A DNA stretch of 64,000 bases from a virus. The stretch covers positions 406,014 through 470,013 of the IMG/VR virus record IMGVR_UViG_3300028558_000016. The stretch is one strand, 5' to 3'. The translations under genes were made by a program, and so were the position numbers. Positions 4,068 through 57,219 of the stretch are shown piece by piece. Within the stretch, counting starts at the first letter, position 1, and each line of letters begins with the position of its first letter. The notes beneath the pieces were generated by a model that made no database searches, was not told the DNA's origin, and saw only the letters and a program-made list of their open reading frames with translations.

Positions 4068-4743
4068 AAAATATAATTTTTTTCCATTTAATATACGTGA
4101 CAAGAAGTATAAGAAAGTCACTTATAAAAATAGGTGCGTTCTTGTTCCGCTTGAAGGAAATAAAGATTATCTCAGACATTTATGTGGTTATGCAGTGTTT
4201 AAGAAAACTGACATTCCAAAAGATTGGTGGGGAAATTATAACGCACCTGGATTGCAAGAATTAAATGTGCATGGTGGAATAACATATTGCAGACAATTTA
4301 AAGTTCCAAACCAAGCTAAGATAGAAAAGAAATTTCATGATCAAATTGATGCGTTATATGACATCTCAAACAGAGAAACTTATGACCATGAAAAAGTTTC
4401 TAAAAGGATGAAAGAAGTGAAGAGGCTGGAAAAAGAATGCAACGATGAATTGTCAAAGAGCGATGAAGGATATATTGTGTTTGGTTTTGACTGTGGACAT
4501 TATAGGGATGCAGAGAATCCAAATCTAAAAGATCCTAACCATGTAATGATATTGACCGAGCAGATGGATACGCTGCTCAAAAAATTTAAGGAAAGTTACG
4601 AGGATTATAGAGATGCGGATGGAGTGACAAAACATGTAGTTAGAAAATCCATCATGGCAAACGTAAACAGAGAAGCAGAAATTCAATGTGAGTTAGGTTT
4701 TGGCGGACTTATTAATTTGCTTTCAGGAGAAACAGAAGATTAA
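4054..4743 (+). CDS. hypothetical protein (229 aa)
   Basis: ORF with no recognisable motif. Confidence 0.45.
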   Translation: MSSSEKYNFFPFNIRDKKYKKVTYKNRCVLVPLEGNKDYLRHLCGYAVFKKTDIPKDWWGNYNAPGLQELNVHGGITYCRQFKVPNQAKIEKKFHDQIDALYDISNRETYDHEKVSKRMKEVKRLEKECNDELSKSDEGYIVFGFDCGHYRDAENPNLKDPNHVMILTEQMDTLLKKFKESYEDYRDADGVTKHVVRKSIMANVNREAEIQCELGFGGLINLLSGETED

Positions 4744-7108: not shown

Positions 7109-7529
7109 AGGTGACATATTAGTATGCAAGCCTGGATATTGGGGACATGAAGATAATCCAGCAAAATCAGATAATGTAAGACCAAAAGAAAATCCAACTT
7201 ATGGTGGAGCAGGGTACATAGATGGATTAATGCAAAAAGCATCATCAAGCTATAATGGTGAAGATCCATTTGATCTTCACGTTTTTTGGAAATTTCACAA
7301 TGAAGCTGGAGTATTTTCAAGAGCTGTAAGACTTGCAAACGAAGAAGAAAAGAAAGCGTATAAAGAAGGAATAAGAAATGCTAAAGATATTCAACGAACA
7401 ACTTTCAAAATATCATACGTTTCCATTGATGGTGAAAACAAGAATGTTGAAGTAGAAGCTTTTTATGAAACTGCCGCAGTAAGCTCCATAAAAGATTTAA
7501 AACGAGTCAATTATGTCATTTCTGGTTAA
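7095..7529 (+). CDS. hypothetical protein (144 aa)
   Basis: ORF. Confidence 0.45.
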   Translation: MRINEGDILVCKPGYWGHEDNPAKSDNVRPKENPTYGGAGYIDGLMQKASSSYNGEDPFDLHVFWKFHNEAGVFSRAVRLANEEEKKAYKEGIRNAKDIQRTTFKISYVSIDGENKNVEVEAFYETAAVSSIKDLKRVNYVISG

Positions 7530-7536
7530 TAGAGAA

Positions 7537-7576
7537 AATAAATTTTTTAGTTTCAGAAATAGTTCCTATATTTGCA
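7537..7576 (+). promoter_or_regulatory. Bacteroidota-type promoter (TTTG ... TAnnTTTG); copy 1 of a conserved 40-bp module
   Basis: AATAAATTTTTTAGTTTCAGAAATAGTTCCTATATTTG, with a −7-like TATATTTG at 7567–7574; near-identical to 11101–11140. Confidence 0.6.
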
Positions 7577-7579
7577 GAT

Positions 7580-7893
7580 ATAAACATTGAAACAATTTTA
7601 AAAAGAAAAGGTATATAGTTTAGAAGATTGCTTACAGCAAAACAAAATGGTTAAAGAATCACCGAAAGGTGGTTTTTTCGGTTCGATCCCGAAGCTCTGA
7701 GATTACATCAATGAGTTTTAAGGCAATCTGAAAGACATTAGAATAACAATACAATGAAGAACAGGAATCACATACACAAGCATCAGATATGGCATAGAGA
7801 TATGTCGGGCTTGGGTGTTACCTGTACTTTGAAGTAAGTATTGGTTATTTACGAAAGTAAAACCTCAAGGCCTAAAACCTTGAGGTTTTTTTT
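7580..7893 (+). ncRNA. candidate about 300-nt non-coding RNA with a 6-codon mini-ORF (unclassified)
   Basis: Lies between a promoter and a strong terminator with no protein ORF; 7-bp hairpin ACCGAAA-GGTGGTTT-TTTCGGT; mini-ORF ATGAGTTTTAAGGCAATCTGA at 7711–7731; AAGGTATATAG block shared with the 11.1-kb module. Confidence 0.4.
7858..7893 (+). terminator. rho-independent terminator
   Basis: AAACCTCAAGG-CCTAAAA-CCTTGAGGTTT followed by TTTTTTT. Confidence 0.75.
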
Positions 7894-7901
7894 ATTTACA
7901 T

Positions 7902-7984
7902 ACGTCGGTGTCCGAGCGGTCAAAGGTAGCGGTCTCCAAAACCGCGGAGTTTCTCCATCGTGGGTTCGAATCCTACCCGGCGTG
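7902..7984 (+). tRNA. tRNA-?(CCA): class II (long variable arm) tRNA with anticodon CCA, decoding UGG; G73 discriminator; Ser/Tyr-like body
   Basis: Acceptor ACGTCGG/CCGGCGT (one G·U); D region TCCGAGCGGTCAAAGG typical of Ser/Tyr/Leu; anticodon arm GCGGT-CTCCAAA-ACCGC; variable-arm hairpin GGAG-TTT-CTCC; T arm GTGGG-TTCGAAT-CCTAC. Confidence 0.6.
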
Positions 7985-8005
7985 CAAAAATTAAAAGAAG
8001 AAAAC

Positions 8006-8350
8006 ATGAATGCAACAGATGTGAAGAAAGAGCTTTACAAAAGCAAAGTGACAGCAAAGTTAACAGACATTGTTAATGGAACAATGTTTTATTCTGTTCA
8101 ATTGGAAGATGGCTTATATCGTTTCCCAATAGTTCAGGTGAAAGAAGTTGGTGGACCATTATACAGGCTTGAGGCAAAAACACAAACAAGCCCAACAGTT
8201 TCTTTGACGTACACGAAACTCGAAGAGAAATGTTATTCACTTTCTTCTGATCTCGGAAGCACTCCTTTCTATCCTGAAATGAAAGCTTCTGAATTAAACA
8301 GGTGGATTGAAAAGGCAATAAAGGATGGAGAGTTTGTGAAGTTGTATTAA
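8006..8350 (+). CDS. hypothetical protein (114 aa)
   Basis: ORF beginning MNATDVKK, downstream of the tRNA; the annotated longer ORF overlaps the tRNA, so the start was trimmed. Confidence 0.45.
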   Translation: MNATDVKKELYKSKVTAKLTDIVNGTMFYSVQLEDGLYRFPIVQVKEVGGPLYRLEAKTQTSPTVSLTYTKLEEKCYSLSSDLGSTPFYPEMKASELNRWIEKAIKDGEFVKLY

Positions 8351-8360
8351 TGGAAATTAT

Positions 8361-8450
8361 GGTGCAGGTATCCAAGGGGTTGAAGGGACCAGGCTGTGGA
8401 CCTGGTTGAAGCGAAAGCTGAACACGCGAGTTCGAATCTCGTCTTGCACC
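8361..8450 (+). tRNA. tRNA-His(GTG): tRNA-His-like (anticodon GTG) with G-1 and C73 but an unusually long variable region (about 89 nt)
   Basis: G-1 plus acceptor GTGCAGG/CTTGCAC and C73; anticodon arm CCAGG-CTGTGGA-CCTGG; extra hairpin AGC-GAAA-GCT before T arm GCGAG-TTCGAAT-CTCGT. Confidence 0.5.
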
Positions 8451-8456
8451 CACATG

Positions 8457-8530
8457 TGGATTGTAGCTCAATGGTAGAGCGCTGGTTTGTGGAACCAGAT
8501 ATGCGGGTTCGATCCCCGTCTTTCCAACCA
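8457..8530 (+). tRNA. tRNA-His(GTG): tRNA-His (anticodon GTG), class I, encoded CCA; acceptor stem with two U·U mismatches
   Basis: D arm GCTC-AATGGTA-GAGC; anticodon arm CTGGT-TTGTGGA-ACCAG; T arm GCGGG-TTCGATC-CCCGT; 3' ACCA; acceptor TGGATTG/CTTTCCA. Confidence 0.6.
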
Positions 8531-8539
8531 AAAGAAGCA

Positions 8540-9172
8540 ATGATGAAAGAGTTAAAGTTAGATAGCACGTACAAAGGAACGAGAATTCTTGTAGGAAACG
8601 AGAAGCGTGGAATGATCAATGACATGGTCATGATTTTATTGAATCAAGGCTTCACTGAGATTTCCATTCCGATCATTCAGTTGCAAGAAACATTTGCAGG
8701 AAAGGTTGGAGAAGAAAATAACAATCTAATGTTCAATTTTAAAGATCGTGGAGAAAGGAATGTTTGCTTGGCTCCTGAATACACAGCAGTGATTCAACAA
8801 TTGGCAAAGACGAAATACAAACAAGAAAAGGACGTAAAGCTTTTCTATGTGCAAGAATGTTTTAGAGGAGAAAAGCCTCAAGCAGGAAGATACAGACAGT
8901 TTACTCAATTTGGAGTTGAAATTTTAAATCCAAAGAAAGAAACTATGGAAGGATTAAAAGAATTAGCCGTCAGCCTTTTGTCCGGTTATGATTTCAAATT
9001 CAACGTCAACAGTGATGTGACGAGAGGTTTGGATTATTACAAGGACGGAAAAGGATTTGAGATCACATGCGATGAGCTTGGATCAAGCAAACAGATTTGT
9101 GGTGGAGGTTCTTATGAAGGTGGAATGGGTTTTGCAATTGGAATTGATAGGATATTAAAAACACAGTCATGA
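8540..9172 (+). CDS. compact histidyl-tRNA synthetase-like protein (class II catalytic core, about 210 aa; no anticodon-binding domain)
   Basis: Motif 2 CFRGEKPQAGRYRQFTQFGVEIL (compare HisRS FRhERPQkGRYRQFhQ); motif 3 CGGGSYEGGMGFAIGIDRIL; N-terminal GTRILVGNE...EISIPIIQLQETF matches HisRS motif 1; about half the length of canonical HisRS. Confidence 0.75.
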   Translation: MMKELKLDSTYKGTRILVGNEKRGMINDMVMILLNQGFTEISIPIIQLQETFAGKVGEENNNLMFNFKDRGERNVCLAPEYTAVIQQLAKTKYKQEKDVKLFYVQECFRGEKPQAGRYRQFTQFGVEILNPKKETMEGLKELAVSLLSGYDFKFNVNSDVTRGLDYYKDGKGFEITCDELGSSKQICGGGSYEGGMGFAIGIDRILKTQS

Positions 9173-9900
9173 AATATTTAGTAGGAATACAGCCAACAGG
9201 AAAGATCCATATTGGAAACTATATGGGTTGCTTAGCAAAGGGGTTGAGATACCAGGAGCAGGGACACGAAGTAACGTTTCTCATTGCCAACTATCACAGC
9301 ATGACGACAGACTCATACTCTGATGTGACTGAGAAGGAATTGAGAATGCTTGGATGCAAGAACATTGTGCACCAGACTCCGGCTTACACTGAATTGTTCT
9401 TCAAGCTTTGTTGCAAGATGAACCTTGGAGTTTTGCAGAAGATGCCTCAGTACAAGGATAAAAAGGAAAGTGTTGATTTCGATATGGGGATTCTTTTATA
9501 TCCAGTTCTAATGGCAGCAGACATCATCATGAATGATCCTGATGTTGTGTTGGTTGGAAGAGACCAGGTTCCACACATGGAATTGACGAACGATATTGCA
9601 AAAAGAGTTGGAGTAACAAAGAGGTTTGAATACGAGCTTGGGGATGTTGAAAAGGTGATGTCGTTAATTGATCCAACAATGAAGATGTCAAAGTCATCTG
9701 GCGAAGCTCACGTGCTTTACCTATTTGACGAGGATTACAGTAACAAATTGAAAAGAGCAAACATGAACGGAGAAGGACTCATTAATATACAAAAGATAGG
9801 AGACTTCTTTGGAATAGAAAGAAACGATATGAATTCCATATACAAAGAAAATATAGCAATAAAACTGTCATCGGTGTTCGGCACCGTCCCGGTGACTTAA
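9169..9900 (+). CDS. compact tryptophanyl-tRNA synthetase-like protein (class Ic; 243 aa; C-terminal anticodon-binding region truncated)
   Basis: GIQPTGKIHIGNYMG matches the TrpRS N-terminus (SGxQPSGelTIGNYxG); YPVLMAADI; VGRDQVPHMELTNDIAKR; KMSKS at residues 172–176; ATGA overlap with the HisRS-like stop. Confidence 0.75.
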   Translation: MKYLVGIQPTGKIHIGNYMGCLAKGLRYQEQGHEVTFLIANYHSMTTDSYSDVTEKELRMLGCKNIVHQTPAYTELFFKLCCKMNLGVLQKMPQYKDKKESVDFDMGILLYPVLMAADIIMNDPDVVLVGRDQVPHMELTNDIAKRVGVTKRFEYELGDVEKVMSLIDPTMKMSKSSGEAHVLYLFDEDYSNKLKRANMNGEGLINIQKIGDFFGIERNDMNSIYKENIAIKLSSVFGTVPVT

Positions 9901-9922
9901 ATAAAACCGGTGCCGTCCAAAT

Positions 9923-10007
9923 GGGCGTGTACCGGTGGAATCTTATACATTCTATACCCGTAGTCTGGTCGTTGAAAACGGGGGTTCAAATCCCTCCACG
10001 CCTACCA
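9923..10007 (+). tRNA. atypical tRNA-like gene (no recognisable D arm; anticodon-like hairpin with TAT; encoded CCA)
   Basis: Acceptor GGGCGTG/CACGCCT; T arm GGGGG-TTCAAAT-CCCTC; 3' ACCA; the only 5+7+5 hairpin is GGAAT-CTTATAC-ATTCT; a 26-nt extra segment precedes the T arm; 85 nt in total. Confidence 0.4.
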
Positions 10008-10011
10008 AATT

Positions 10012-10050
10012 TAGCTTCATGAATTATGATATATAGTTCATGAAGCATTT
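10012..10050 (+). promoter_or_regulatory. 9-bp inverted repeat spanning the start codon of the downstream ORF
   Basis: CTTCATGAA-TTATGATATATAG-TTCATGAAG; the ATG of ORF 10040 lies in the 3' arm. Confidence 0.4.
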
Positions 10051-10576
10051 ACAGACATATCAGCAGCTTAACGAGAGCATGATAGATTCCAATTTGAAGA
10101 AGGAATTTGCATTTACCCTAAAACAAATGGATGAAATTTCCAATGCAATACTCAATGCAAAAGATTTCAAGAACAGGGTAAAGCTTATGAAGAAAGAAAA
10201 CCCAGATATTGGAAAAGCTATGGGAGATTACAAAGAATATCTTGATCTCGCCACCAAGGTGCAAAAAATAGTAAAACAAATTAGATCAAAAGGACTTTCT
10301 TCAGACAGAAGAAAAGCGACTAAACAATTGAGAGCCATCCAGGGGTTTTCTGGTACACTTAAAACAGTTTTCGATAATTTGAATAAGTTTGATAAAAAAA
10401 CCAAAAAGGGTTTTGAAAGCAACGAAGGAATAGCAACCATCATTGGAAATACATTAAGAAATATATTGACTGGTCAGTTCATAGTTAACATATTAAAAAC
10501 CATAAAAGGAAATTTAATGGATTCACAAGCAGAACTAACTACTGTGCAAGATGTATTTGATATAAAAGATTATTAA
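10040..10576 (+). CDS. hypothetical protein (178 aa); the N-terminus MKHLQTYQQLNE weakly resembles the MKHIKLFE leader family
   Basis: ORF with a loosely similar N-terminal motif. Confidence 0.45.
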   Translation: MKHLQTYQQLNESMIDSNLKKEFAFTLKQMDEISNAILNAKDFKNRVKLMKKENPDIGKAMGDYKEYLDLATKVQKIVKQIRSKGLSSDRRKATKQLRAIQGFSGTLKTVFDNLNKFDKKTKKGFESNEGIATIIGNTLRNILTGQFIVNILKTIKGNLMDSQAELTTVQDVFDIKDY

Positions 10577-10577
10577 T

Positions 10578-10817
10578 ATGCAAAAGATTAAGGACGCTTT
10601 AAAATGGATGGTTTGTACCAAGCTTGGATGGTTGATAATATCATTCTTATGGATTGGTGTGTTCATGATAATAAACGATAACATAGAATCTGGATGGGCC
10701 TTTTGGGTTGCAATTCCAGGATTCGCATACATCATAGGTTTATTCCTTGTCATGATGTTTTATGCGGTAAAGAATACGATAGGAGACATAAAAGAAAATA
10801 GAAATGAAAAATCTTAA
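10578..10817 (+). CDS. small membrane protein (2 predicted TM helices)
   Basis: Hydrophobic stretches WLIISFLWIGVFMII and FAYIIGLFLVMMFYAV. Confidence 0.45.
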   Translation: MQKIKDALKWMVCTKLGWLIISFLWIGVFMIINDNIESGWAFWVAIPGFAYIIGLFLVMMFYAVKNTIGDIKENRNEKS

Positions 10818-11100
10818 AAAGTTCGGTGAGTTAAACGAGGGTGGATTAGGTTATGAAAACAACAAAACGCTTCCTCCATCTGGGACACACATAAAATATG
10901 TTGCTGACACAACAGATCCAAAGACCAAAAAAATTCTCAAGATTATTTGGAATTCATGGGACGAGGCAAAAAGGAAACAGATGCTTAACAAAATGGGACA
11001 CAGCGAAAAGTATTTTGATGCTTCTTTTGAAGACCTGACAGGAGAGATCCAAGGAAAGATCGTAATGCTTGATGCCTCATTGCCAGAAAACAAGCGATAA
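10804..11100 (+). CDS. MKHIKLFE-leader family member on the + strand (N-terminus MKNLKKFGELNE)
   Basis: N-terminus matches the MKNIKxFxELNE sub-variant found in the 62–64 kb array. Confidence 0.5.
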   Translation: MKNLKKFGELNEGGLGYENNKTLPPSGTHIKYVADTTDPKTKKILKIIWNSWDEAKRKQMLNKMGHSEKYFDASFEDLTGEIQGKIVMLDASLPENKR

Positions 11101-11140
11101 AATAAATTTTTTAGTTTCAAATATAATACCTATATTTGTA
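11101..11140 (+). promoter_or_regulatory. Bacteroidota-type promoter; copy 2 of the conserved module
   Basis: AATAAATTTTTTAGTTTCAAATATAATACCTATATTTG, with a −7-like TATATTTG at 11131–11138. Confidence 0.6.
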
Positions 11141-11338
11141 AAAGATTAAGAAACAAAGAAAACCGCAAGGTATATAAGATACAAATGATGAATACAGTAA
11201 ATATTACCCGAATTATTAGGATTAGACGCAGATCAGCGACTCGCCTGGGTAGTATTATTTTATCATGAAAGTTTTAAGGATTTAGAAAACTATGAATGGA
11301 ATAAGCCCAGGACGAAAGTTCTGGGCTTTTTTCATTTT
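11141..11338 (+). ncRNA. candidate about 190-nt small RNA with a 6-codon mini-ORF; paralogous to the 7.6-kb element
   Basis: Promoter followed by AAGGTATATAAG, then a mini-ORF ATGAAAGTTTTAAGGATTTAG at 11265–11285, then terminator AGCCCAG-GACGAAAGTT-CTGGGCT followed by TTTTTT. Confidence 0.4.
11306..11338 (+). terminator. rho-independent terminator
   Basis: AGCCCAG...CTGGGCT stem followed by TTTTTT. Confidence 0.7.
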
Positions 11339-11382
11339 AAAAATATCGAAAATGAAATGGTTTAAGAAATTACAGGAAATAA

Positions 11383-11466
11383 CGGCACGTACTCAGACCA
11401 TCCTGATAAGATGGATAACTTGTAGCGGTGTTGCAAACGTGGGTTCAAATCCCTCCGTGCCGACCA
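11383..11466 (+). tRNA. atypical tRNA-like gene (anticodon-like hairpin GAT; no recognisable D arm; long extra segment; encoded CCA)
   Basis: Acceptor CGGCACG/CGTGCCG perfect; hairpin CCATC-CTGATAA-GATGG (canonical Ile-GAU loop); only 6 nt between position 9 and the hairpin; 24-nt extra segment; T arm GTGGG-TTCAAAT-CCCTC; ACCA end. Confidence 0.4.
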
Positions 11467-11737
11467 TGAAAAATATGTTGTATAAAACCGCAAGAAGGTC
11501 GTTGTCAAAAAAGACAAACAGACATTTGAGACAAACCACGTTTCTCTACGAGATGTGTGGAAATGATTTTCAAAAGCTGTTAAAGGTGGAAGAGAGATTG
11601 AAAAATTATTTTCTCTTTTATTGTCCAGGCGATCCTGAAGAAGTGGAAAAAGTTTTGGCATTGCCTGAAAAATTTTTATTGAACGATAAGAAGTGGCAAG
11701 ATGGATCAAAATATTTTTGCTTAGAAGAATTTTACGA

Positions 11738-11811
11738 CGGAATGTAGCTCAGTTGGTTAGAGCACCCGCCTGATACGCGGTAGGTCGGCAGTTCGAATCT
11801 GCCCATTCCGA
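11738..11811 (+). tRNA. tRNA-Ile(GAT): tRNA-Ile (anticodon GAT), canonical cloverleaf
   Basis: Acceptor CGGAATG/CATTCCG; D arm GCTC-AGTTGGTTA-GAGC; anticodon loop CTGATAC; T arm GGCAG-TTCGAAT-CTGCC. Confidence 0.75.
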
Positions 11812-11814
11812 CAG

Positions 11815-11960
11815 ATGTCCTTAGCTCAGTGGTTAGAGTATTATGCTGATAAAAGGTTTTAGATCTTGTAATGGAAAAATATCACGGCTCATAACCGTGG
11901 TACCAAAACAAAAATTTAAAATGCACATAAGGGTCGGTGGTTCGAATCCATCAGGACATG
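11815..11960 (+). tRNA. tRNA (Ile-GAT-like) interrupted by an about 72-nt insertion in the anticodon loop
   Basis: Acceptor ATGTCCT/AGGACAT perfect; D arm GCTC-AGTGGTTA-GAGT; anticodon-stem halves TTATG ... CATAA separated by 72 nt that begin CTGATAA and contain the hairpin CACGG-CTCATAA-CCGTG; T arm GGTGG-TTCGAAT-CCATC. Confidence 0.5.
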
Positions 11961-11969
11961 CATAAAAAT

Positions 11970-12043
11970 GCCCGCGTAGCTCAACTGGATAGAGCACCTG
12001 ACTACGGATCAGGAGGTTTAGAGTTCGAATCTCTACGTGGGTA
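11970..12043 (+). tRNA. tRNA-Arg(ACG): tRNA-Arg (anticodon ACG)
   Basis: D arm GCTC-AACTGGATA-GAGC; anticodon arm CCTGA-CTACGGA-TCAGG; T arm TAGAG-TTCGAAT-CTCTA. Confidence 0.75.
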
Positions 12044-12047
12044 CATT

Positions 12048-12121
12048 GGTTTTGTAGCTCAATTGGATAGAGCAATTCCGTCCTAAGGAAAAGGTTATAG
12101 GTTCGAGTCCTATCAAGATCA
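12048..12121 (+). tRNA. tRNA-Arg(CCT): tRNA-Arg (anticodon CCT)
   Basis: D arm GCTC-AATTGGATA-GAGC; anticodon loop GTCCTAA; T arm ATAGG-TTCGAGT-CCTAT; acceptor GGTTTTG/CAAGATC with two G·U pairs. Confidence 0.65.
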
Positions 12122-12126
12122 CAAAT

Positions 12127-12199
12127 GCCTGCGTAGCTCAGTGGACAGAGCGCCGGTCTTCGGAACCGGGCGTCGGGAGTTCGAATCTCTCCGTGGGTA
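12127..12199 (+). tRNA. tRNA-Arg(TCG): tRNA-Arg (anticodon TCG)
   Basis: D arm GCTC-AGTGGACA-GAGC; anticodon arm CCGGT-CTTCGGA-ACCGG; T arm GGGAG-TTCGAAT-CTCTC. Confidence 0.75.
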
Positions 12200-12223
12200 C
12201 TGAAGTAAAATGGAATTAAATAT

Positions 12224-12313
12224 GCCCGTGTAGCCGAGGAAGTTTTCTAAACTTTTATCCGTAATTGGAGCTGCGTCTCACGACTAATGGGGGTTCGAAT
12301 CCCTCCACGGGTA
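12224..12313 (+). tRNA. atypical tRNA-like gene (anticodon-like hairpin TCT; no recognisable D arm; 33-nt extra segment; 90 nt)
   Basis: Acceptor GCCCGTG/CACGGGT; hairpin GAAGT-TTTCTAA-ACTTT; T arm GGGGG-TTCGAAT-CCCTC; same architecture as the elements at 9923 and 11383. Confidence 0.4.
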
Positions 12314-12328
12314 CTTAAAATTAAAGTT

Positions 12329-13492
12329 ATGAAAATTGATATTGATAAAATAAAACAGATCCCCAAAGAGATTTCGGAAGAATTTGGGATGTGCGTCTAT
12401 GGACCAATCTCAGATGAGATTAAGGCATGGATGGAATTCCATGGTATGCAATCGCAAAACATGGGAAATTATACAAACATCTATACAGATAAAAACATTA
12501 TTGATCTGTTCAATAAACCAGAACCATTTGAATACATCGATGGGTTCAGTCCAAACCTAAACAAGAATCTTCACATTGGACACTTCTCAAATTTAGTTCT
12601 TGCAAAGGCTTTCGTCTCTCTTGGAATAGCAAAGAAGACTGTGGCAATATTGGGAGACACGTTAGAAGGGGATGTTTCAAAGGAAGATGCGTTGAACAAC
12701 TACAATGAGATATGTGAGAAATTCTCATACCCCGTAGATAAGATGTTCATGGCTTCTGAAATGGAATCTGATTACAACCTCGTGGATGGTGTTCATGAAT
12801 ATGAAGGAACCAAAGTGTTCTATCTTGATACGCCATTAGTTGGAATCAAAAGCGATGGGTCAACAACATATTTCTATCAGGACGTTGCATTGGCACAAAA
12901 ATTAAATGCTCCAACATTATATCTTACAGGAAGCGAACAGAACGGACATTTCAACAGCTTAAAGGAAATGTTTCCTAAAATAAAGCACATTGGACTTGGA
13001 CTTGTAAAAGCAAAAGGAGGAAAGATGTCAAGCAGACTCGGAAATGTTATTTGGATGCAAGATGTCATCGATGAAATGATGAGCAACTTTCAAGACGAAA
13101 AAGTGTGCTATAATGTTTTTGCAGGATTTATTTTGAAATCAACTCCTAAGTCTGAAAAGAACATAGACATATATCAATTGGACAATCCATTGAATTCACC
13201 TGGATTGTACTTAAGCTATACGTTAGCAAAACTAAAAAGCGCTGGAGTGAAATGTGAAGGAAAAACATTCACCTCTCAAGATCTTCAATTCAAATACATG
13301 AAGGCCTTGAACTCTCTTTCTCCAAATATTTTGCTTGAAGGTTTAATTGATCATGCAAAGAAGATAAGCGGTTTATACATCACTCACAAGATAAAAGATA
13401 ATGCGGTGAACCAGTCCATGTTTGAAATATTGGGTTCAGATTTATTATTAGGAATGAGCCTCCTGGGTTTATTTGATGTTGACAAGGTTTAA
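12329..13492 (+). CDS. compact arginyl-tRNA synthetase-like protein (class I; 388 aa versus about 570 aa canonical)
   Basis: HIGH motif SPNLNKNLHIGHFSN; ArgRS-specific KMSSRLGN in place of KMSKS (compare ArgRS kkMSTRkG) followed by ...QDVIDE; starts 16 nt after the last tRNA-like gene. Confidence 0.7.
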   Translation: MKIDIDKIKQIPKEISEEFGMCVYGPISDEIKAWMEFHGMQSQNMGNYTNIYTDKNIIDLFNKPEPFEYIDGFSPNLNKNLHIGHFSNLVLAKAFVSLGIAKKTVAILGDTLEGDVSKEDALNNYNEICEKFSYPVDKMFMASEMESDYNLVDGVHEYEGTKVFYLDTPLVGIKSDGSTTYFYQDVALAQKLNAPTLYLTGSEQNGHFNSLKEMFPKIKHIGLGLVKAKGGKMSSRLGNVIWMQDVIDEMMSNFQDEKVCYNVFAGFILKSTPKSEKNIDIYQLDNPLNSPGLYLSYTLAKLKSAGVKCEGKTFTSQDLQFKYMKALNSLSPNILLEGLIDHAKKISGLYITHKIKDNAVNQSMFEILGSDLLLGMSLLGLFDVDKV

Positions 13493-13549
13493 TTAATTTT
13501 TCGTAAATTAGTCTTGCGCATCTATTTATAAACTGATAATCTAAATCAA

Positions 13550-14506
13550 ATGGCAACCAAAACATCTAAAGCCGCAACAGGAACCGTGAAAGCACGAACA
13601 GCAGGAAGAAAAGCAACGACATCAACAAAGACACCAATGAAAGCAGAAACTACATTGGAACCAAAAAAGGCCTCGAAGATTAAAATAAGTGGAAAAGAAG
13701 TTACATTGAACGGGTATTTTAAAATTGAATTGGGAACCTTTTCGATTTTAAAGCACAACATCCGAAACAACATAAGCACTCTTTTAATAGGTCCAACAGG
13801 ACTTGGAAAAACAGATGTCGCAGTTAACATTGCGTCTGTGCTCGATGTTCCTATAACCATATTTGATATGGGAACGATGACTGACCCCATCATGGGACTT
13901 GTTGGAACTCACGTCATAGAGGTTAAAGATGGAAAAACATATTCTGAATTCAAGAAAAGCAGATTCTCTGACGTCATCCAAAAACCAGGAATAGTTTTAT
14001 TGGATGAGGTCAATCGTGCTGCATCAGCCGCTAACAACTTATTATTTCCTTGTTTAGATTTCAGAAGAGAGCTTCCAATGGAATATTCGTTTGGAGATAC
14101 TAAGCCAATTCCAATTCATCCTAAATGTGTTTTCTTTGCAACGGCAAATATAGGATCTCAGTATACCGGAACTCACAAGCTTGACAGAGCATTAATCGAT
14201 AGGTTCATGATTATTGCAGTTGATAGTCTCAACACTCAACAAATTATGTCCACGTTAGAAGTGACTCATTCTAAATTAAGTGAGACTGACAGAAAAAAGA
14301 TTGTTGACATTTACAACAAGATAAACAAAGAGCATGACGATTTCAAAATAGGTTTCAATTTGTCAATACGACATTTGAAAACTGTTGCGACACTTGTGCA
14401 AAACAAGTTCACGATATATGATGCGTATTATGCAATATGCAAAGGACTTGGTGGACCAGAAGGATTAAAAGCTATTGAATCGATCTTAAGCACCTCTAAA
14501 AAATGA
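13550..14506 (+). CDS. MoxR/CobS-like AAA+ ATPase
   Basis: Walker A LLIGPTGLGKTDVA; Walker B VLLDEVNRA (the DExNRA form typical of MoxR/CobS); K/T-rich N-terminal tail. Confidence 0.7.
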   Translation: MATKTSKAATGTVKARTAGRKATTSTKTPMKAETTLEPKKASKIKISGKEVTLNGYFKIELGTFSILKHNIRNNISTLLIGPTGLGKTDVAVNIASVLDVPITIFDMGTMTDPIMGLVGTHVIEVKDGKTYSEFKKSRFSDVIQKPGIVLLDEVNRAASAANNLLFPCLDFRRELPMEYSFGDTKPIPIHPKCVFFATANIGSQYTGTHKLDRALIDRFMIIAVDSLNTQQIMSTLEVTHSKLSETDRKKIVDIYNKINKEHDDFKIGFNLSIRHLKTVATLVQNKFTIYDAYYAICKGLGGPEGLKAIESILSTSKK

Positions 14507-51758: not shown

Positions 51759-52030
51759 TTTTTCTTGTAGAAATCAAATAAATCCTGCCACATGTGCTGG
51801 TTGGTTCCAGTCTTAATGTCTTCCAAATAGGCATCAAACATTCCTCTGTCCTGTCTGTATAAGTAATCACCGGCTAAACTCTTTCTTGCTCCTGTCGCTC
51901 TGCTGCTTGCGGTCTTGTTGTCTTTTCCATAAACCTCGTTCATGAGTTTTCTCAATAAAGGAGCCGTGATAATCTTTTTAAAATTCTCAAGTTCTTGGTC
52001 AAATCCCTCGAATATTTTTAGGTATTTCAT
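51755..52030 (-). CDS. MKHIKLFE-leader family member (MKYLKIFEGF)
   Basis: Conserved N-terminal motif. Confidence 0.5.
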   Translation of the reverse strand: MKYLKIFEGFDQELENFKKIITAPLLRKLMNEVYGKDNKTASSRATGARKSLAGDYLYRQDRGMFDAYLEDIKTGTNQHMWQDLFDFYKKK

Positions 52031-52380
52031 TTGATGTTATTCTTCTTGAGAACCGCTCTGTACATCTTGGCGATGTCATTGAGCTGAGGAATTCCGTCAA
52101 ATTCCATTCTCGCCTGAGTCACTCGGTCTTTCTTAAGTTTATCCTTTCCAGAACCATCATATTCAGTGTATTCTATGAAAAGATTCTTGTTCTTGTAAAC
52201 TACCGGCTTATATTTCATTGGAGCTTCCCATGTGCTCGATTTGTCGATTACTTCCAAAGGATCTCCATCAATATCAATCGCTTTAGCAATCAAAGCATTT
52301 ACCTCTGCAACCTTCTTTTGAATTGCTGCGTCTGACATCCCCTCATTTAGGAAGTTCTCATATAGTTTTATGTGTTTCAT
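52027..52380 (-). CDS. MKHIKLFE-leader family member (MKHIKLYENFLNE)
   Basis: Conserved N-terminal motif. Confidence 0.55.
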   Translation of the reverse strand: MKHIKLYENFLNEGMSDAAIQKKVAEVNALIAKAIDIDGDPLEVIDKSSTWEAPMKYKPVVYKNKNLFIEYTEYDGSGKDKLKKDRVTQARMEFDGIPQLNDIAKMYRAVLKKNNIK

Positions 52381-52985
52381 GTAATGGAAGCTTCTACGGT
52401 AGCTTTAATTATTTTTGGCATTTCGTCTTCAAAATTCTTTGCGAGATTAACGGTATCTATATTAGACAATTCGGCAATGACATCATGCGTTGACAAGAAA
52501 GAATCCAATAATTCATCAGAAAGCTTTCCAGCAACAATGCAAATCATTACTGTTAGAGCAACGTTACCGAATGTTTTCTTTTGTTCTCCGTTCAACGAAT
52601 CTATGAAATTCTTCAAAAGAGGAATCTTATTAGAAATTCTTAAAATCAATTTGAAAATTCCTGCCGTGTATATGTCTCCTTTGTGCTTCAACCATTCAGC
52701 CATTTTAAATGTGACTCTGCCAACCTTCTCGCTTGATTCCATTCCAATATATGTCAATGCAGCACTCGCGAGATGTGCTACTTTTCCAAGACTCAATGCT
52801 GCACCTATTGCTAATGTGGCCAAAACGGCTTCATTATTTCCGTCAAGCTTTGCTACAAGCACTCCGTCTTTTTTAATCTCTTTCTCGGTATCGGAAGCGA
52901 TCTTATCGTCATCAACGATTTTTAATATCTCGTCGAAGATGTTTACGTCGATCTCAAATTCCTCAAACAGTTTTATGTGTCGCAT
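52377..52985 (-). CDS. MKHIKLFE-leader family member (MRHIKLFEEFE), 202 aa
   Basis: Conserved N-terminal motif. Confidence 0.55.
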   Translation of the reverse strand: MRHIKLFEEFEIDVNIFDEILKIVDDDKIASDTEKEIKKDGVLVAKLDGNNEAVLATLAIGAALSLGKVAHLASAALTYIGMESSEKVGRVTFKMAEWLKHKGDIYTAGIFKLILRISNKIPLLKNFIDSLNGEQKKTFGNVALTVMICIVAGKLSDELLDSFLSTHDVIAELSNIDTVNLAKNFEDEMPKIIKATVEASIT

Positions 52986-53242
52986 TACTTTTCTTCTTTA
53001 TCTGTTTCTTCCCATTCTCTTATGGTGCCTTCAGCATCCCATAGAGCACAACACATTCTCTCAGAAACCTTCTGGTCAACCTGAGGATGCTTGCACATCT
53101 TTTCTTTTAGATCTATGAATTTACAATTAGCACAGTTTGTGCCTTCAACATTTTCTGGAAGCGTGACAAGATCTGCCGCTTTTGCTCTATCGAGACGGCT
53201 TGGTTTGTCCTCTTCATTCTCGTAAATCTTTAAGTGTTTCAT
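52985..53242 (-). CDS. family member (MKHLKIYENEED)
   Basis: Conserved N-terminal motif. Confidence 0.5.
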   Translation of the reverse strand: MKHLKIYENEEDKPSRLDRAKAADLVTLPENVEGTNCANCKFIDLKEKMCKHPQVDQKVSERMCCALWDAEGTIREWEETDKEEK

Positions 53243-53244
53243 TG

Positions 53245-53574
53245 TTATCCGAGTAATTTTTCAAGCTTTTTAACGAGCGTTTCTACGGTAGTTGAATATC
53301 CGTATAAACCATTAATGTCTGTTCCAAGACTTACTCCTCTGTTTGACATTGTAATTTTGAAATTGGTTCCAAGATAGGAACATTCAAAATAATCATTGGT
53401 AAAAAAGTCTATGTCATCATTTTTAATGACAGTCTTCTTTATTCTTATTCCAGCGGCCTTCAATTGAGTAGCAACAGCGCTCATGTATTCTTTCTTTGCT
53501 TCGCTGTAGATTCCACGTTTGACGTCCATAAGATTTCCAGCAGATGCAGCCTCAAATAATTGTAAGTGTTTCAT
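53245..53574 (-). CDS. family member (MKHLQLFEAA)
   Basis: Conserved N-terminal motif. Confidence 0.5.
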   Translation of the reverse strand: MKHLQLFEAASAGNLMDVKRGIYSEAKKEYMSAVATQLKAAGIRIKKTVIKNDDIDFFTNDYFECSYLGTNFKITMSNRGVSLGTDINGLYGYSTTVETLVKKLEKLLG

Positions 53575-53575
53575 A

Positions 53576-53884
53576 TTATGCTTTAGCTCTTTTTATGTGC
53601 AAGTAAACAAACTCATCCACGTCTTCCAAGCTTCCCTTTACTTTCTTTGGAAATTTGTCAGTCACCAACTTATAAATACGTCTTGCTTCTGTCTTATCTT
53701 TATCACCTGGAGTTTCATCTCCTGTGTTACCATTTTCTCTTGTAGTCAATAGGATCTCATCATCGTCTTCCTCTTCAATGTCAAACCAACTATGTTCTTT
53801 CTTTACGAAATCACATATTTCTTTCCATTCAGTCGAGGTTGTTTCTTCGTTCAAGAATCCCTCAAATAGTTTAATGTGTTTCAT
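53576..53884 (-). CDS. family member (MKHIKLFEGFLNE)
   Basis: Conserved N-terminal motif. Confidence 0.55.
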   Translation of the reverse strand: MKHIKLFEGFLNEETTSTEWKEICDFVKKEHSWFDIEEEDDDEILLTTRENGNTGDETPGDKDKTEARRIYKLVTDKFPKKVKGSLEDVDEFVYLHIKRAKA

Positions 53885-53886
53885 AT

Positions 53887-54282
53887 TTAAGATTTTTTAG
53901 TTTGGTCGCTGATGTCTCCAGGTTCTACGTCTGCTGGAATTTCTTCCACGATGTCAACCATAGTTCTGTTATACAAAGCTGCTTCCTTTTCTGAAAAAGA
54001 ATCAGATAAAGCTTTGATGAAAGCCTTTGGAGTTTTTGGATTTAAGTTGATGCTTCTCTTATGTGAGTGTCCAATCTCAAGAGTGTAACCGAAATATCCG
54101 ATCATGTCCTCAACTGTTCCCTTCACATATTTAATTCTTGTTCTTCCTTGACCCTTGTCGTAGGTTACTTTAACGATGAAAGCTTTTCCAGGTTTTGCTG
54201 GCTTTGCAGCTGATTCAGGATTAGGTGCATCAGTGAATTTATTCTCGTTGATAAATCCTTCAAACAATTTAATGTGTTTCAT
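53887..54282 (-). CDS. family member (MKHIKLFEGFINE)
   Basis: Conserved N-terminal motif. Confidence 0.55.
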   Translation of the reverse strand: MKHIKLFEGFINENKFTDAPNPESAAKPAKPGKAFIVKVTYDKGQGRTRIKYVKGTVEDMIGYFGYTLEIGHSHKRSINLNPKTPKAFIKALSDSFSEKEAALYNRTMVDIVEEIPADVEPGDISDQTKKS

Positions 54283-55267: not shown

Positions 55268-55269
55268 TA

Positions 55270-55530
55270 TTATGCTTTGCTTGCTTTTACCCATTCATCC
55301 CAAAAGTCTTCACCGTCCATTAAATAATAACCTATGAAGTCGGCTATCTTTTCTGGAAAATCTTCGATGCCTTTTATTTTTTTAGGATCAATTCCAAATC
55401 TTTTAGCGTTATCAAACACGAATTTACCCAAAGGCTCTTTCATGTGTCCTCTGTTTCCAAGCTCTTTTGTAACTTTTTCTACAGTGTTTAATTCTGTATG
55501 GAAGTTCTCGAATAATTTAATGTGCTTCAT
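55270..55530 (-). CDS. family member (MKHIKLFENFHTE)
   Basis: Conserved N-terminal motif. Confidence 0.55.
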   Translation of the reverse strand: MKHIKLFENFHTELNTVEKVTKELGNRGHMKEPLGKFVFDNAKRFGIDPKKIKGIEDFPEKIADFIGYYLMDGEDFWDEWVKASKA

Positions 55531-55540
55531 AATTATAAAT

Positions 55541-56429: not shown

Positions 56430-56430
56430 G

Positions 56431-57140: not shown

Positions 57141-57160
57141 TATCGTATATATTTGGTTAT

Positions 57161-57190
57161 AAAACAAAAACAGCAGGTTTCCCTGCTGTT
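57161..57190 (-). terminator. rho-independent terminator (− strand) after the tail-tube gene
   Basis: ACAGCAGG-TTTCC-CTGCTGT with AAAACAAAAA on the + side. Confidence 0.65.
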
Positions 57191-57219
57191 CCGTTAATTT
57201 TATTGAAGTAAACCGAATA

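What the first reader, a model, noticed from the sequence alone, without database searches (positions are those of the whole stretch)
7580..7893. Promoter-to-terminator unit with no protein ORF: candidate about 300-nt RNA with a 6-codon mini-ORF, paralogous to 11141–11338
Both units start about 30 nt after the −7 box with AAGGTATATA(A/G) and carry a related block ATGA(G/AA)TTTTAAGG... encoding six-residue peptides (MSFKAI and MKVLRI). Both end at strong terminators. The first unit also has a 7-bp hairpin that overlaps a pseudo T-arm (TTCGG-TTCGATC-CCGAA), so two alternative structures are possible. These could be sRNAs, leader-peptide attenuators for the downstream tRNA/aaRS operons, or tRNA-processing leaders.
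Basis: seen in the sequence. Interest (0 to 1): 0.55.

Follow-up and report, generated by a model that had tools for sequence, protein, structure and literature searches.

The report
Leader-peptide attenuators gating phage tRNA operons
The two "RNA units" are probably on-demand switches: each has a 27-codon mini-gene rich in the amino acids served by the phage tRNA and tRNA-charging genes just downstream, so those genes would be transcribed only when ribosomes run short of those charged tRNAs.

Summary
The sequence features are real: a shared promoter block, AAGGTATATA, strong terminators, and a hairpin overlapping a T-arm-like hairpin. The "no ORF / 6-codon mini-ORF" reading is wrong.

Each unit holds a 27-codon ORF that ends about 20 nt before the terminator:
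- Unit A, 7754-7837: MKNRNHIHKHQIWHRDMSGLGVTCTLK (4 His, 1 Trp). Downstream lie tRNA(CCA), two tRNA-His, and HisRS-like and TrpRS-like genes.
- Unit B, 11185-11268: MMNTVNITRIIRIRRRSATRLGSIILS (6 Ile, 6 Arg). Downstream lie tRNA-Ile, three tRNA-Arg and an ArgRS-like gene.

In both units the RNA just 3' of the regulatory codons can pair with the terminator's 5' arm. This gives the classical 1:2 / 2:3 / 3:4 attenuator layout.

The 6-codon mini-ORFs are destroyed in the closest relative (95% identical TrpRS-like protein), while the 27-codon ORFs are kept.

The same architecture recurs about 40 times in related huge-phage contigs, including the published 735-kb and 642-kb genomes. Leader codons match the anticodons of the following tRNA array:
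- 281 of 903 codons match, against 149±15 after permutation.
- The synonymous-codon choice also matches (z = 7.8).
- Antiterminator strands covary with their own terminators (0 of 20000 permutations reach the observed value).

The mechanism is classical; the target (phage tRNA arrays plus aaRS-like genes) appears undescribed. All evidence is computational.

The parts
7532..7574 (+). Promoter block of unit A (-7 box TATATTTG at 7567-7574); expected transcription start about 7579-7582
   Evidence: 39/43 identical to 11096-11138. TAnnTTTG is rare on this strand. The motif lies within 100 nt upstream of the leader ATG in 20/32 family members, against 8.7% of random windows.
7608..7737 (+). 5' domain of unit A, role unresolved. 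Contains the TATATA motif (7608-7617), closing stem AGATTGCTT (7625-7633) / AAGGCAATCT (7720-7729), hairpin 7658-7673 + U-run, T-arm-like hairpin 7677-7693, 17-codon ORF 7647-7700 and mini-ORF 7711-7731.
   Evidence: Fold. In L006 the hairpin changes CACC/GGTG to CTCC/GGAG (compensatory), the 17-codon ORF is frame-shifted and the mini-ORF is truncated. No tRNA-model match here at E<=10.
7754..7837 (+). Leader ORF A, 27 codons: MKNRNHIHKHQIWHRDMSGLGVTCTLK. Regulatory codons His6, His8, His10, Trp13, His14 lie at 7769-7795 (also region 1).
   Evidence: 5/26 codons are readable by the downstream anticodons against a background of 0.027 (p = 6e-4). L006 keeps the frame and gains a fifth His.
7807..7822 (+). 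Region 2 of unit A (GGGCUUGGGUGUUACC). It pairs either with the His codons (1:2) or with the terminator 5' arm at 7857-7872 (antiterminator).
   Evidence: Constrained folds: antiterminator -21.6 kcal/mol with the ribosome at His10/Trp13; terminator restored with the ribosome at the stop codon. 1:2 hairpin -18.0 kcal/mol.
7859..7897 (+). Intrinsic terminator of unit A (12-bp stem 7859-7870 / 7878-7889, U-run to 7897)
   Evidence: -16.2 kcal/mol. The stem is conserved with loop changes in L006 and L007.
7902..9900 (+). Genes gated by unit A: tRNA(CCA) 7902-7985, ORF 8006-8350, tRNA-His 8362-8451 and 8457-8530, HisRS-like 8558-9172, TrpRS-like 9169-9900
   Evidence: The tRNA starts 5 nt after the U-run, and there is no TAnnTTTG between 7575 and 10383 on this strand.
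11096..11138 (+). Promoter block of unit B (-7 box at 11131-11138)
   Evidence: nearly identical in L006.
11185..11268 (+). Leader ORF B, 27 codons: MMNTVNITRIIRIRRRSATRLGSIILS. Regulatory Ile/Arg codons 7-16 lie at 11203-11232. The 5' part (11185-11210) is region 1.
   Evidence: 10/26 codons are readable by the downstream anticodons against a background of 0.059 (p = 1e-6). The Arg codons used are CGA, AGG, AGA, CGC, AGA, CGC, although AGA is 67% of Arg codons in long ORFs.
11241..11267 (+). Region 2 of unit B (UCGCCUGGGUAG...UUAUUUUAUCAUG). It pairs with region 1, or with 11292-11316 (antiterminator).
   Evidence: antiterminator -27.4 to -17.7 kcal/mol with the A site at codons 7-16, lost at codon 20 or the stop. 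Duplex with the terminator arm is -14.3 vs -7.1±1.9 kcal/mol in shuffles.
11294..11338 (+). Intrinsic terminator of unit B (core stem 11303-11328, extended stem 11294-11337, U-run)
   Evidence: -26.0 kcal/mol.
11383..13492 (+). Genes gated by unit B: tRNA-like (GAU anticodon loop) 11383-11466, small ORF, tRNA-Ile 11738-11812, tRNA with insert 11815-11960, tRNA-Arg ACG/CCT/TCG 11970-12200, tRNA-like 12224-12316, ArgRS-like 12287-13492
   Evidence: Caveat: the TAnnTTTG at 11712 could be an internal promoter.

Best explanation
Units A and B are ribosome-mediated (leader-peptide) transcription attenuators. They gate two tRNA/aminoacyl-tRNA-synthetase operons of a huge (482-kb contig) phage of Bacteroidota.

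Proposed sequence of events:
1. A host-type promoter starts a transcript whose first translated element is a 27-codon ORF.
2. Codons 6-16 of that ORF are enriched in the codons read by the tRNA genes that follow: His/Trp in A, Ile/Arg in B.
3. If the cognate charged tRNAs are plentiful, the ribosome runs to the stop codon, about 20 nt before the terminator. It then covers region 2, the terminator hairpin forms, and transcription ends. This yields a leader RNA of about 315 nt (A) or about 195 nt (B).
4. If a cognate charged tRNA is scarce, the ribosome stalls on the regulatory codons and occupies region 1. Region 2 is then free to pair with the terminator's 5' arm (the antiterminator). RNA polymerase reads through into the tRNA genes, which start 5-45 nt after the U-run, and into the cognate aaRS-like genes.
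5. Without translation, 1:2 pairing forms and the terminator forms.

The result would be a demand-driven feedback loop. The phage makes its own tRNA-X and X-RS when decoding of X codons is slow, and stops when supply is restored.

Shown computationally: the ORFs, their codon content, the terminators, the complementary segments, and their conservation and covariation across a family.

Inferred: translation of the ORFs, stalling, the direction of the response, and its biological purpose (for example compensating for host tRNA shortage or depletion).
For: 1. ORFs and context.
- The two 27-codon ORFs carry clustered cognate codons.
- Downstream are tRNA(CCA), two tRNA-His, and HisRS-like and TrpRS-like genes for A; tRNA-Ile, three tRNA-Arg and an ArgRS-like gene for B.
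- Binomial p is 6e-4 for A and 1e-6 for B.

2. Geometry.
- The terminator is immediately followed by the first tRNA.
- No other TAnnTTTG lies on the strand between unit A and 10384.

3. Alternative folds.
- Both units show the 1:2 / 2:3 / 3:4 logic under ribosome-masking constraints.

4. Close relative L006.
- Both 27-codon ORFs are kept in frame. Gln11 becomes a fifth His in A.
- The 6-codon and 17-codon ORFs are broken.

5. Family.
- A blind scan was run over contigs fetched through the TrpRS-like gene. It looked for a terminator with a 14-45-codon ORF ending within 110 nt upstream and a tRNA downstream.
- It found about 35 units whose peptides track the tRNA arrays. Examples: KKKKK before 5 tRNA-Lys; SSRSRSS before Arg/Ser; IYIGYIAEGGYEAG before Glu/Tyr/Gly/Ile/Ala.
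- The published 735-kb and 642-kb genomes carry them too: LLNSLCLL before 5 tRNA-Leu; YNDYCIND before Ile/Cys/Asp/Asn/Tyr.

6. Statistics.
- 281/903 leader codons are readable by the array's anticodons, against 149±15 after permuting arrays among units (0/20000).
- Among synonymous codons, 96/132 are readable against 56±5 expected (z = 7.8). For Arg the figures are 27/31 against 8.4 expected.
- 42 of 49 strong terminators within 700 nt upstream of a tRNA have such an ORF.

7. Antiterminator.
- 19/32 units beat 95% of shuffles.
- Own-terminator duplexes average -9.97 kcal/mol against -6.42 for cross pairs; 0/20000 permutations reach the observed sum.

8. Stereotyped architecture.
- Median ORF length is 27 codons.
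- Stop codon to terminator stem is a median of 23 nt.
- Cognate residues sit at positions 9-17.
Against: - There are no expression data of any kind. Translation of the ORFs, termination at the hairpins and the response to tRNA shortage are all inferred.
- At equilibrium the full-length RNAs still prefer the terminator even with the ribosome mask. The model therefore needs kinetic, co-transcriptional folding, as classical attenuators do.
- For unit A the duplex test alone is marginal (shuffle fraction 0.083).
- About 40% of family members did not pass the simple duplex test at 0.05. My terminator-arm boundaries were crude.
- A TAnnTTTG match at 11712, just before tRNA-Ile and conserved in L006, could bypass attenuator B.
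- The RNA polymerase that transcribes these units during infection is unknown.
- The 130-nt 5' domain of unit A has no role in this model.
- Units are phylogenetically related, so the counts are not fully independent. The permutation tests compare among classes and are conservative in that respect.
Confidence: 0.85

Rival explanations
1. The units are genes for trans-acting small RNAs of about 300 and about 190 nt. The short ORFs are incidental.
For: Promoter-to-terminator units fold more stably than shuffles. The terminated leader RNAs would exist as discrete species and could have a second function.
Against: This does not explain several observations. ORF codon content tracks the downstream anticodons across about 40 units. 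The frame of the 27-codon ORFs is kept while other frames break. The tRNA arrays have no room for a promoter of their own after the terminator. There is no Rfam sRNA match above the gathering score.
Confidence: 0.05
2. The units are RNA-only sensors (T-box-like or another riboswitch) that bind uncharged tRNA or a metabolite directly. The pseudo T-arm or hairpins would be the sensing domain.
For: T-boxes precede aaRS genes and end in terminator/antiterminator pairs. Unit A has a structured 5' domain with one compensatory double change in L006.
Against: No T-box or other riboswitch model matches, even at E<=10. Unit B and most family members have no such 5' domain, and their leader ORF starts 15-60 nt after the promoter. 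The amino-acid specificity is encoded in-frame as codons, including multi-amino-acid sets that no single tRNA-binding specifier could read.
Confidence: 0.04
3. The 27-codon ORFs encode functional small proteins (or nothing at all). The terminators are ordinary, partly leaky operon boundaries, and the tRNA arrays are expressed constitutively by read-through or from unrecognised phage promoters.
For: Huge phages may use their own RNA polymerase and promoters that my scans cannot see. A conserved TATATA motif sits 4-10 nt before many leader ATGs (13/32) and could be such a promoter. Small proteins are common in phages.
Against: Peptide sequences are not conserved outside the cognate-codon cluster, whereas the nucleotide complementarity to each unit's own terminator is. 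The match holds at the synonymous-codon level. The fixed stop-to-terminator spacing of about 23 nt has no reason under this model.
Confidence: 0.06

Closest known systems
E. coli pheST (phenylalanyl-tRNA synthetase) operon attenuator with the pheM leader peptide (own knowledge, not tested here)
   Same: A leader peptide rich in the cognate amino acid, followed by an intrinsic terminator, controls transcription of an aminoacyl-tRNA synthetase operon according to charged-tRNA supply.
   Different: pheM senses one amino acid and controls only protein genes of a bacterium. Here the first and main regulated genes are tRNA genes, the sets are multi-amino-acid, and the element is viral. No sequence similarity was found.
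Classical amino-acid biosynthesis attenuators (trpL, hisL, and the multivalent ilvGMEDA leader) (own knowledge; general description in PMC1183508)
   Same: Same four-segment logic (1:2, 2:3 antiterminator, 3:4 terminator). Regulatory codons are clustered in a 14-30-codon ORF. Some leaders read several amino acids at once, as ilvL does.
   Different: Those regulate enzymes that make the amino acid. Here the output is the decoding machinery itself (tRNAs plus aaRS-like proteins), and leader codons match individual isoacceptor anticodons. The Rfam Thr_leader match scores only 25 bits against a gathering score of 55.
T-box riboswitches
   Same: Terminator/antiterminator control of aaRS genes in response to tRNA charging.
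   Different: T-boxes bind uncharged tRNA directly through RNA and need no translation. No T-box match here.
Bacteroid-trp leader motif (Rfam family; own knowledge)
   Same: Leader-peptide attenuation in the phylum Bacteroidota, the predicted host phylum of this phage clade (PMC7162821).
   Different: It precedes bacterial tryptophan biosynthesis genes. It gave no match in the window at E<=10.

Membership tests
Ribosome-mediated (leader-peptide) transcription attenuator | Short ORF in the leader with clustered codons cognate to the regulated genes | tested here: met
   A: 4 His + 1 Trp in codons 6-14. B: 4 Ile + 5 Arg in codons 7-16 (6 + 6 in the whole peptide). p = 6e-4 and 1e-6. Family-wide permutation gives 0/20000.
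Ribosome-mediated (leader-peptide) transcription attenuator | Intrinsic terminator between the leader ORF and the regulated genes | tested here: met
   Terminators at 7859-7897 and 11303-11338. The stop codon lies 21 and 34 nt before the stem; the family median is 23 nt.
Ribosome-mediated (leader-peptide) transcription attenuator | Antiterminator: the segment 3' of the regulatory codons pairs with the terminator 5' arm | tested here: met
   Constrained folds. Shuffle test: 19/32 units at <=0.05. Own-versus-cross terminator control: 0/20000. In silico only; unit A alone is marginal (0.083).
Ribosome-mediated (leader-peptide) transcription attenuator | Anti-antiterminator (1:2) pairing that a stalled ribosome would prevent | tested here: met
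   A: CACAUACACAAGC with GCUUGGGUG, -18.0 kcal/mol. B: the 5' third of the ORF with GGGUAGUAUUAUUUUAUCAU, -20.0 kcal/mol. Not tested across the family.
Ribosome-mediated (leader-peptide) transcription attenuator | Regulated genes have no promoter of their own after the terminator | tested here: inconclusive
   A: the tRNA starts 5 nt after the U-run and there is no TAnnTTTG until 10384. B: a TAnnTTTG at 11712 precedes tRNA-Ile. Phage-specific promoters cannot be recognised with these tools.
Ribosome-mediated (leader-peptide) transcription attenuator | The leader ORF is translated, and read-through rises when the cognate charged tRNA is limiting | not testable with these tools
   Needs Ribo-seq, Term-seq or reporter assays.
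T-box riboswitch | Match to the T-box covariance model (specifier loop, T-box sequence) | tested here: not met
   No T-box match at the gathering score or at E<=10 in 7400-12300.
Curated Rfam leader families (Thr_leader, His_leader, Trp_leader, Bacteroid-trp and others) | Score at or above the family gathering threshold | tested here: not met
   Only Thr_leader matched, at 25.1 bits against a gathering score of 55, over the unit B terminator. No other leader family matched.
tRNA or tRNA-like element (for the pseudo T-arm at 7677-7693) | Match to the tRNA covariance model or an ARAGORN call | tested here: not met
   No tRNA match in 7580-7893 at E<=10 and none from ARAGORN. Only the 10-nt T-loop-like string GGTTCGATCC is present.

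The most novel reading that the evidence does not exclude
Huge Bacteroidota phages of the Mahaphage type may split essentially their whole tRNA complement, and matching aaRS-like genes, into amino-acid-specific regulons. Each regulon would be gated by a leader peptide whose codons match the isoacceptor anticodons of that array. The phage would then measure, codon by codon, how well the infected cell decodes, and switch on exactly the tRNAs and charging enzymes that are short. The shortage could come from a codon-usage mismatch, host shut-off, or tRNA-cleaving defence systems. This would be the first case of tRNA genes regulated by leader-peptide attenuation, and a viral sensor of the translation state.
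Probability: 0.55. Interest if true: 0.9.

Novelty: new variant of a known kind. Interest (0 to 1): 0.85.

Why it matters
Why phages carry tRNA genes, and how those genes are controlled, is an open question. Proposed reasons include codon-usage compensation, host shut-off and evasion of tRNA-targeting defences.

If these units work as predicted, they give a simple answer for the largest known phages. tRNA and aaRS-like genes would be expressed on demand, controlled by the ribosome itself, at the resolution of single isoacceptors.

They would also:
- extend leader-peptide attenuation, a textbook mechanism for amino-acid biosynthesis, to tRNA genes and to viruses;
- give an annotation rule: a leader peptide predicts the identity of odd tRNAs that follow it, including the long-variable-arm and D-arm-poor tRNA-like genes seen here;
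- supply compact, programmable, codon-specific transcription switches for Bacteroidota.

The hypothesis can be tested directly with reporters.

Tried and rejected
- **Stop-codon recoding hiding a long ORF.** Six-frame translation with the three stop codons marked separately shows no frame interrupted by only one stop type. Rejected.
- **Known RNA families.** Only tRNAs pass the gathering score. Weak sub-threshold matches (Thr_leader, trpB, MicC, group II fragment) sit on the terminators. Rejected.
- **GenBank phage DNA similarity.** The only match is a tRNA.
- **Relatives through the upstream 144-aa ORF in IMG/VR.** None found.
- **Exact-pattern scan for the unit A terminator in IMG/VR.** It gave 23 loci (L011-L033), mostly bidirectional terminators in unrelated contigs. 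Not analysed further.
- **L005 (519-kb IMG/VR contig, TrpRS-like 68% identical).** Different gene order and no ARAGORN tRNAs, so not informative for these units.
- **L001-L004.** Identical to the window (L003 differs at a single base), so they give no comparative signal.
- **6-codon mini-ORFs and the 17-codon ORF as leader peptides.** Rejected because they are broken or frame-shifted in L006 and contain no cognate codons.
- **The "related block" as evidence of paralogy.** Not significant.
- **T4-type late promoter TATAAATA or a general GGTATATA motif as a window-wide signal.** Not enriched beyond the two units.
- **Literature.** Seven full-text searches for leader-peptide attenuation of phage tRNA genes found nothing relevant. 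The huge-phage paper that published the 735-kb genome does not contain the words attenuat-, leader or terminator.
Full report
**1. The observation**

- The two units share a 43-nt promoter block (7532-7574 and 11096-11138; 39/43 identical). It ends in TATATTTG, a match to the Bacteroidota -7 consensus TAnnTTTG (own knowledge).
- Only five such matches occur on the + strand between 6 and 20 kb.
- AAGGTATATA follows 29-34 nt later in both units. GGTATATA occurs three times in the window against 0.57 expected.
- Both units end in strong intrinsic terminators, at 7859-7897 and 11303-11338.
- Both fold better than shuffled sequence (z = -3.9 and -5.3).
- The hairpin at 7658-7673 and the overlapping TTCGG-TTCGATC-CCGAA hairpin at 7677-7693 are there.
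- The 6-codon ORFs MSFKAI (7711-7731) and MKVLRI (11265-11285) are there. However, the "related block" around them is not significant on its own (p = 0.07).

**2. What was missed**

Six-frame translation shows that each unit contains a 27-codon ATG ORF ending shortly before the terminator.
- Unit A, 7754-7837: MKNRNHIHKHQIWHRDMSGLGVTCTLK.
- Unit B, 11185-11268: MMNTVNITRIIRIRRRSATRLGSIILS.

So "no protein ORF" is not correct. No frame is interrupted by a single stop-codon type, so recoding does not hide a longer gene.

**3. Context**

- The window is identical to part of a 482-kb metagenomic contig (identity).
- Unit A is followed, 5 nt after its U-run, by a tRNA with anticodon CCA. Then come a 114-aa ORF, two tRNA-His, a HisRS-like gene and a TrpRS-like gene.
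- Unit B is followed by a tRNA-like gene with a GAU anticodon loop, tRNA-Ile, a tRNA with an insert, three tRNA-Arg, another tRNA-like gene and an ArgRS-like gene.
- The His/Trp-rich peptide therefore precedes the His/Trp decoding genes, and the Ile/Arg-rich peptide precedes the Ile/Arg decoding genes.
- 5/26 codons of A and 10/26 codons of B are readable by the anticodons that follow. Backgrounds are 0.027 and 0.059 (p = 6e-4 and 1e-6).
- Leader B uses CGA, AGG, AGA, CGC, AGA and CGC for Arg, although AGA makes up 67% of Arg codons in the window's long ORFs. The rare codons are those read by the tRNA-Arg ACG, CCT and TCG genes in the array.

**4. Alternative RNA structures**

Unit A:
- With no ribosome, the His codons (CACAUACACAAGC) pair with GCUUGGGUG (region 1:2, -18.0 kcal/mol), and the terminator forms.
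- With a ribosome masked at His10 or Trp13, GGGCUUGGGUGUUACC (7807-7822) pairs with GUAAAACCUCAAGGCC (7857-7872), the terminator's 5' arm (-21.6 kcal/mol on the nascent RNA).
- With a ribosome at the stop codon, region 2 is covered and the terminator forms.

Unit B behaves the same way:
- The 5' third of the ORF pairs with GGGUAGUAUUAUUUUAUCAU (-20.0 kcal/mol).
- With the A site at codons 7-16, UCGCCUGGGUAG...UUAUUUUAUCAUG pairs with CAUGAAUGGAAUAAGCCCAGG (-27.4 to -17.7 kcal/mol).
- This pairing is lost at codon 20 or at the stop codon.

At equilibrium the full-length RNAs still prefer the terminator. The switch must therefore be kinetic, as in the classical cases.

**5. Close relative**

L006 is an NCBI metagenome contig whose TrpRS-like protein is 95% identical. 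It carries both units.
- Leader A stays in frame and becomes MKNRNHIHKHHIWHGNMSGLGVTCTLK, with Gln11 replaced by a fifth His.
- Leader B becomes MMNTVNITRIIRIRRRSASSLGSIILSS.
- MSFKAI is cut to MSF by an extra T.
- The ATG of MKVLRI is lost.
- The 17-codon ORF in the 5' half of unit A is frame-shifted.
- Downstream of the unit B terminator the two genomes diverge completely, whereas the unit itself is about 97% identical.

**6. A family**

- L007 (TrpRS-like 84% identical) has a 27-codon leader, MNLFQKHNHKFNNIWFRTKVGLEYFVF, and a terminator in front of tRNA-Phe, Trp, Lys, Asn and Ile genes and HisRS/TrpRS-like genes.
- I then fetched about 40 phage-type loci through an alignment of the TrpRS-like protein.
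- I scanned them blindly for a strong terminator with a 14-45-codon ORF ending within 110 nt upstream and a tRNA downstream.
- 42 of 49 strong terminators lying within 700 nt of a tRNA have such an ORF.
- The peptides track the arrays:

| Leader peptide | tRNA array that follows |
|---|---|
| MLVVTAIVTKKKKKPWTQGTIAY | five tRNA-Lys |
| MKTTIKNTSSRSRSSKSSEVRLYS | Arg, Ser, Ser |
| MNTLIYIGYIAEGGYEAGSFVNGLVLPMRKV | Glu, Tyr, Gly, Ile, Ala |
| MYTVFNISSWSSRWSSREKSQGPGRAMC | Ser and Trp |

- The best GenBank matches of the TrpRS-like protein are the 735-kb and 642-kb genomes LR756501-3. These are the huge phages of Al-Shayeb et al. 2020, assigned to the Mahaphage clade with predicted Bacteroidetes hosts (PMC7162821).
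- Those genomes carry the same units:

| Leader peptide | tRNA array that follows |
|---|---|
| MNNILHINLLNSLCLLGIKLIG | five tRNA-Leu |
| MKNMVRKYNDYCINDKLKMLIG | Ile, Cys, Asp, Asn, Tyr |
| MKNLHNISVGVIAIGAGSVCLWLNYVS | Ile, Gly, Ala |

**7. Statistics**

- Over 37 non-identical units, unfiltered, 281 of 903 leader codons are readable by the anticodons of their own array. After permuting arrays among units the figure is 149±15 (0 of 20000 permutations reach the observed value).
- Within cognate amino acids, the synonymous codon chosen is one the array can read in 96 of 132 informative cases, against 56±5 expected from usage in long ORFs (z = 7.8). For Arg it is 27/31 against 8.4 expected.
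- The segment between codon 5 and the terminator forms a stronger duplex with the terminator 5' arm than 95% of dinucleotide shuffles in 19 of 32 units. The partner lies at about nt 55-70 of the ORF, just 3' of the regulatory codons.
- Each leader pairs better with its own terminator arm than with those of other units (-9.97 against -6.42 kcal/mol; 0 of 20000 permutations). This amounts to covariation of the antiterminator.
- The architecture is stereotyped:
  - median ORF length 27 codons;
  - stop codon to stem 23 nt (IQR 20-26);
  - stem to first tRNA 27 nt;
  - cognate residues at positions 9-17;
  - TAnnTTTG within 100 nt upstream in 20/32 units, against 8.7% of random windows.

**8. Mechanism proposed**

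This is classical ribosome-mediated attenuation.
- Plentiful cognate charged tRNA: the ribosome reaches the stop codon, region 2 is covered, the terminator forms, and a short leader RNA results.
- Scarce cognate charged tRNA: the ribosome stalls on region 1, the 2:3 antiterminator forms, and transcription reads through into the tRNA genes and aaRS-like genes.

Because the output is the decoding machinery for the very codons that are sensed, the circuit is a negative feedback on decoding capacity. The purpose (compensation for codon-usage mismatch, host shut-off or tRNA-targeting defence) is inference.

**9. The 5' half of unit A (7608-7737) is not explained**

- It begins with the family's TATATA motif. 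This motif lies 4-10 nt before the leader ATG in 13/32 units and 8 nt before it in unit B.
- In unit A, however, it is followed by a structured domain rather than the leader ORF.
- The hairpin at 7658-7673 shows a compensatory double change in L006 (CACC/GGTG to CTCC/GGAG).
- In L006 the ATG opens a 24-codon ORF, MVKEPPKGVSSVRSRSSEITSMSF, whose Ser/Arg run resembles the Ser/Arg leaders of other phages. In the window a 1-nt indel shifts this frame.
- The "pseudo T-arm" is that codon run (TCG GTT CGA TCC CGA AGC), and MSFKAI is the tail of that frame.
- It may be a decaying second leader or an accessory structure. It is not a tRNA by the covariance model.

**10. Comparison and novelty**

- The units meet every computationally testable defining feature of leader-peptide attenuators.
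- They match no curated Rfam leader family or T-box.
- The closest known cases are the pheST attenuator (an aaRS operon) and the multivalent ilv leader (own knowledge).
- I know of no tRNA genes, and no viral genes, controlled this way.
- Seven full-text searches found none, and the paper describing the related 735-kb genome does not mention it. The held library is incomplete, so prior description cannot be excluded.

**11. Caveats**

- Everything is in silico.
- The units are evolutionarily related.
- Phage-specific promoters cannot be recognised with these tools.
- The TAnnTTTG at 11712 may bypass unit B.
- The aaRS-like proteins are short and score below NCBIfam cut-offs: hisS 142 bits against 287, trpS 131 against 177, argS 48 against 262. 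Their activities are uncertain.

Noticed in passing
window 7902-7985 and 8362-8451; L007 8146-8235: tRNAs with anticodons CCA (Trp), GTG (His) and, in L007, TTT (Lys) have long variable arms, a type-II shape normally restricted to Ser, Leu and Tyr. The CCA tRNA matches a cyanophage tRNA-Ser at 78%. A normal-shaped tRNA-His sits next to the long one. Their charging identity is unclear.
   Followed up: partly
window 9923-10007, 11383-11466, 12224-12316: Three tRNA-like genes share a T-arm. The first two encode a 3'-terminal CCA and appear to lack a normal D-arm (9923-10007, 11383-11466). All three are missed by ARAGORN but score 34-37 bits with the Rfam tRNA model. Their anticodon loops read CUUAUAC (UAU), CUGAUAA (GAU) and UUCUAAA (CUA, a possible amber suppressor).
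   Followed up: partly
window 11815-11960: A tRNA match of 146 nt with an insert of about 70 nt in the anticodon-loop region (an intron-like element). It is also present in L006 at 4461-4607.
   Followed up: no
window 8558-9172, 9169-9900, 12287-13492: The HisRS-like (204 aa), TrpRS-like (243 aa) and ArgRS-like (401 aa) proteins are much shorter than cellular enzymes. The matches cover only part of the cellular enzyme models. The 240-aa TrpRS-like form is a large family: 497 proteins at E<=1e-20, many on contigs of 100-500 kb.
   Followed up: partly
window 52000-64000, minus strand: At least 15 small paralogous genes all start with nearly the same 25-40 nt (ATGAAACACATTAAACTATTTGA..., peptide MKHIKLFE...). 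This is a multigene family in tandem (repeat finder families D1-D5).
   Followed up: no
window 11712-11719 (and L006, about 4125): A TAnnTTTG match lies about 20 nt upstream of tRNA-Ile, inside the preceding small ORF, and is conserved in L006. It may be an internal promoter that bypasses attenuator B.
   Followed up: partly
window 14145-14154, minus strand: A third exact copy of CCTATATTTG (the -7 box with its 5' flank) lies on the opposite strand inside the AAA-ATPase gene, facing a 115-aa minus-strand ORF at 13546-13893.
   Followed up: no
L005 9680-9755: In a 519-kb IMG/VR contig, a tRNA-like gene with anticodon loop CUUCAAA (UCA, a possible opal suppressor) lies a few hundred nt upstream of the TrpRS-like gene. 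ARAGORN does not call it.
   Followed up: no
L007 6196-7512 and 20641-; L008 5142-6458: IS605 OrfB/TnpB (Cas12f-like) genes are inserted next to the attenuator-controlled tRNA array in a related phage.
   Followed up: no
L060 about 1238 (tRNA with anticodon CTA), after leader MYTVFNISSWSSRWSSREKSQGPGRAMC: A Ser/Trp-type attenuated array contains a tRNA with anticodon CUA, which ARAGORN labels 'Pyl'. An amber suppressor may therefore be co-regulated with the Ser and Trp tRNAs.
   Followed up: no
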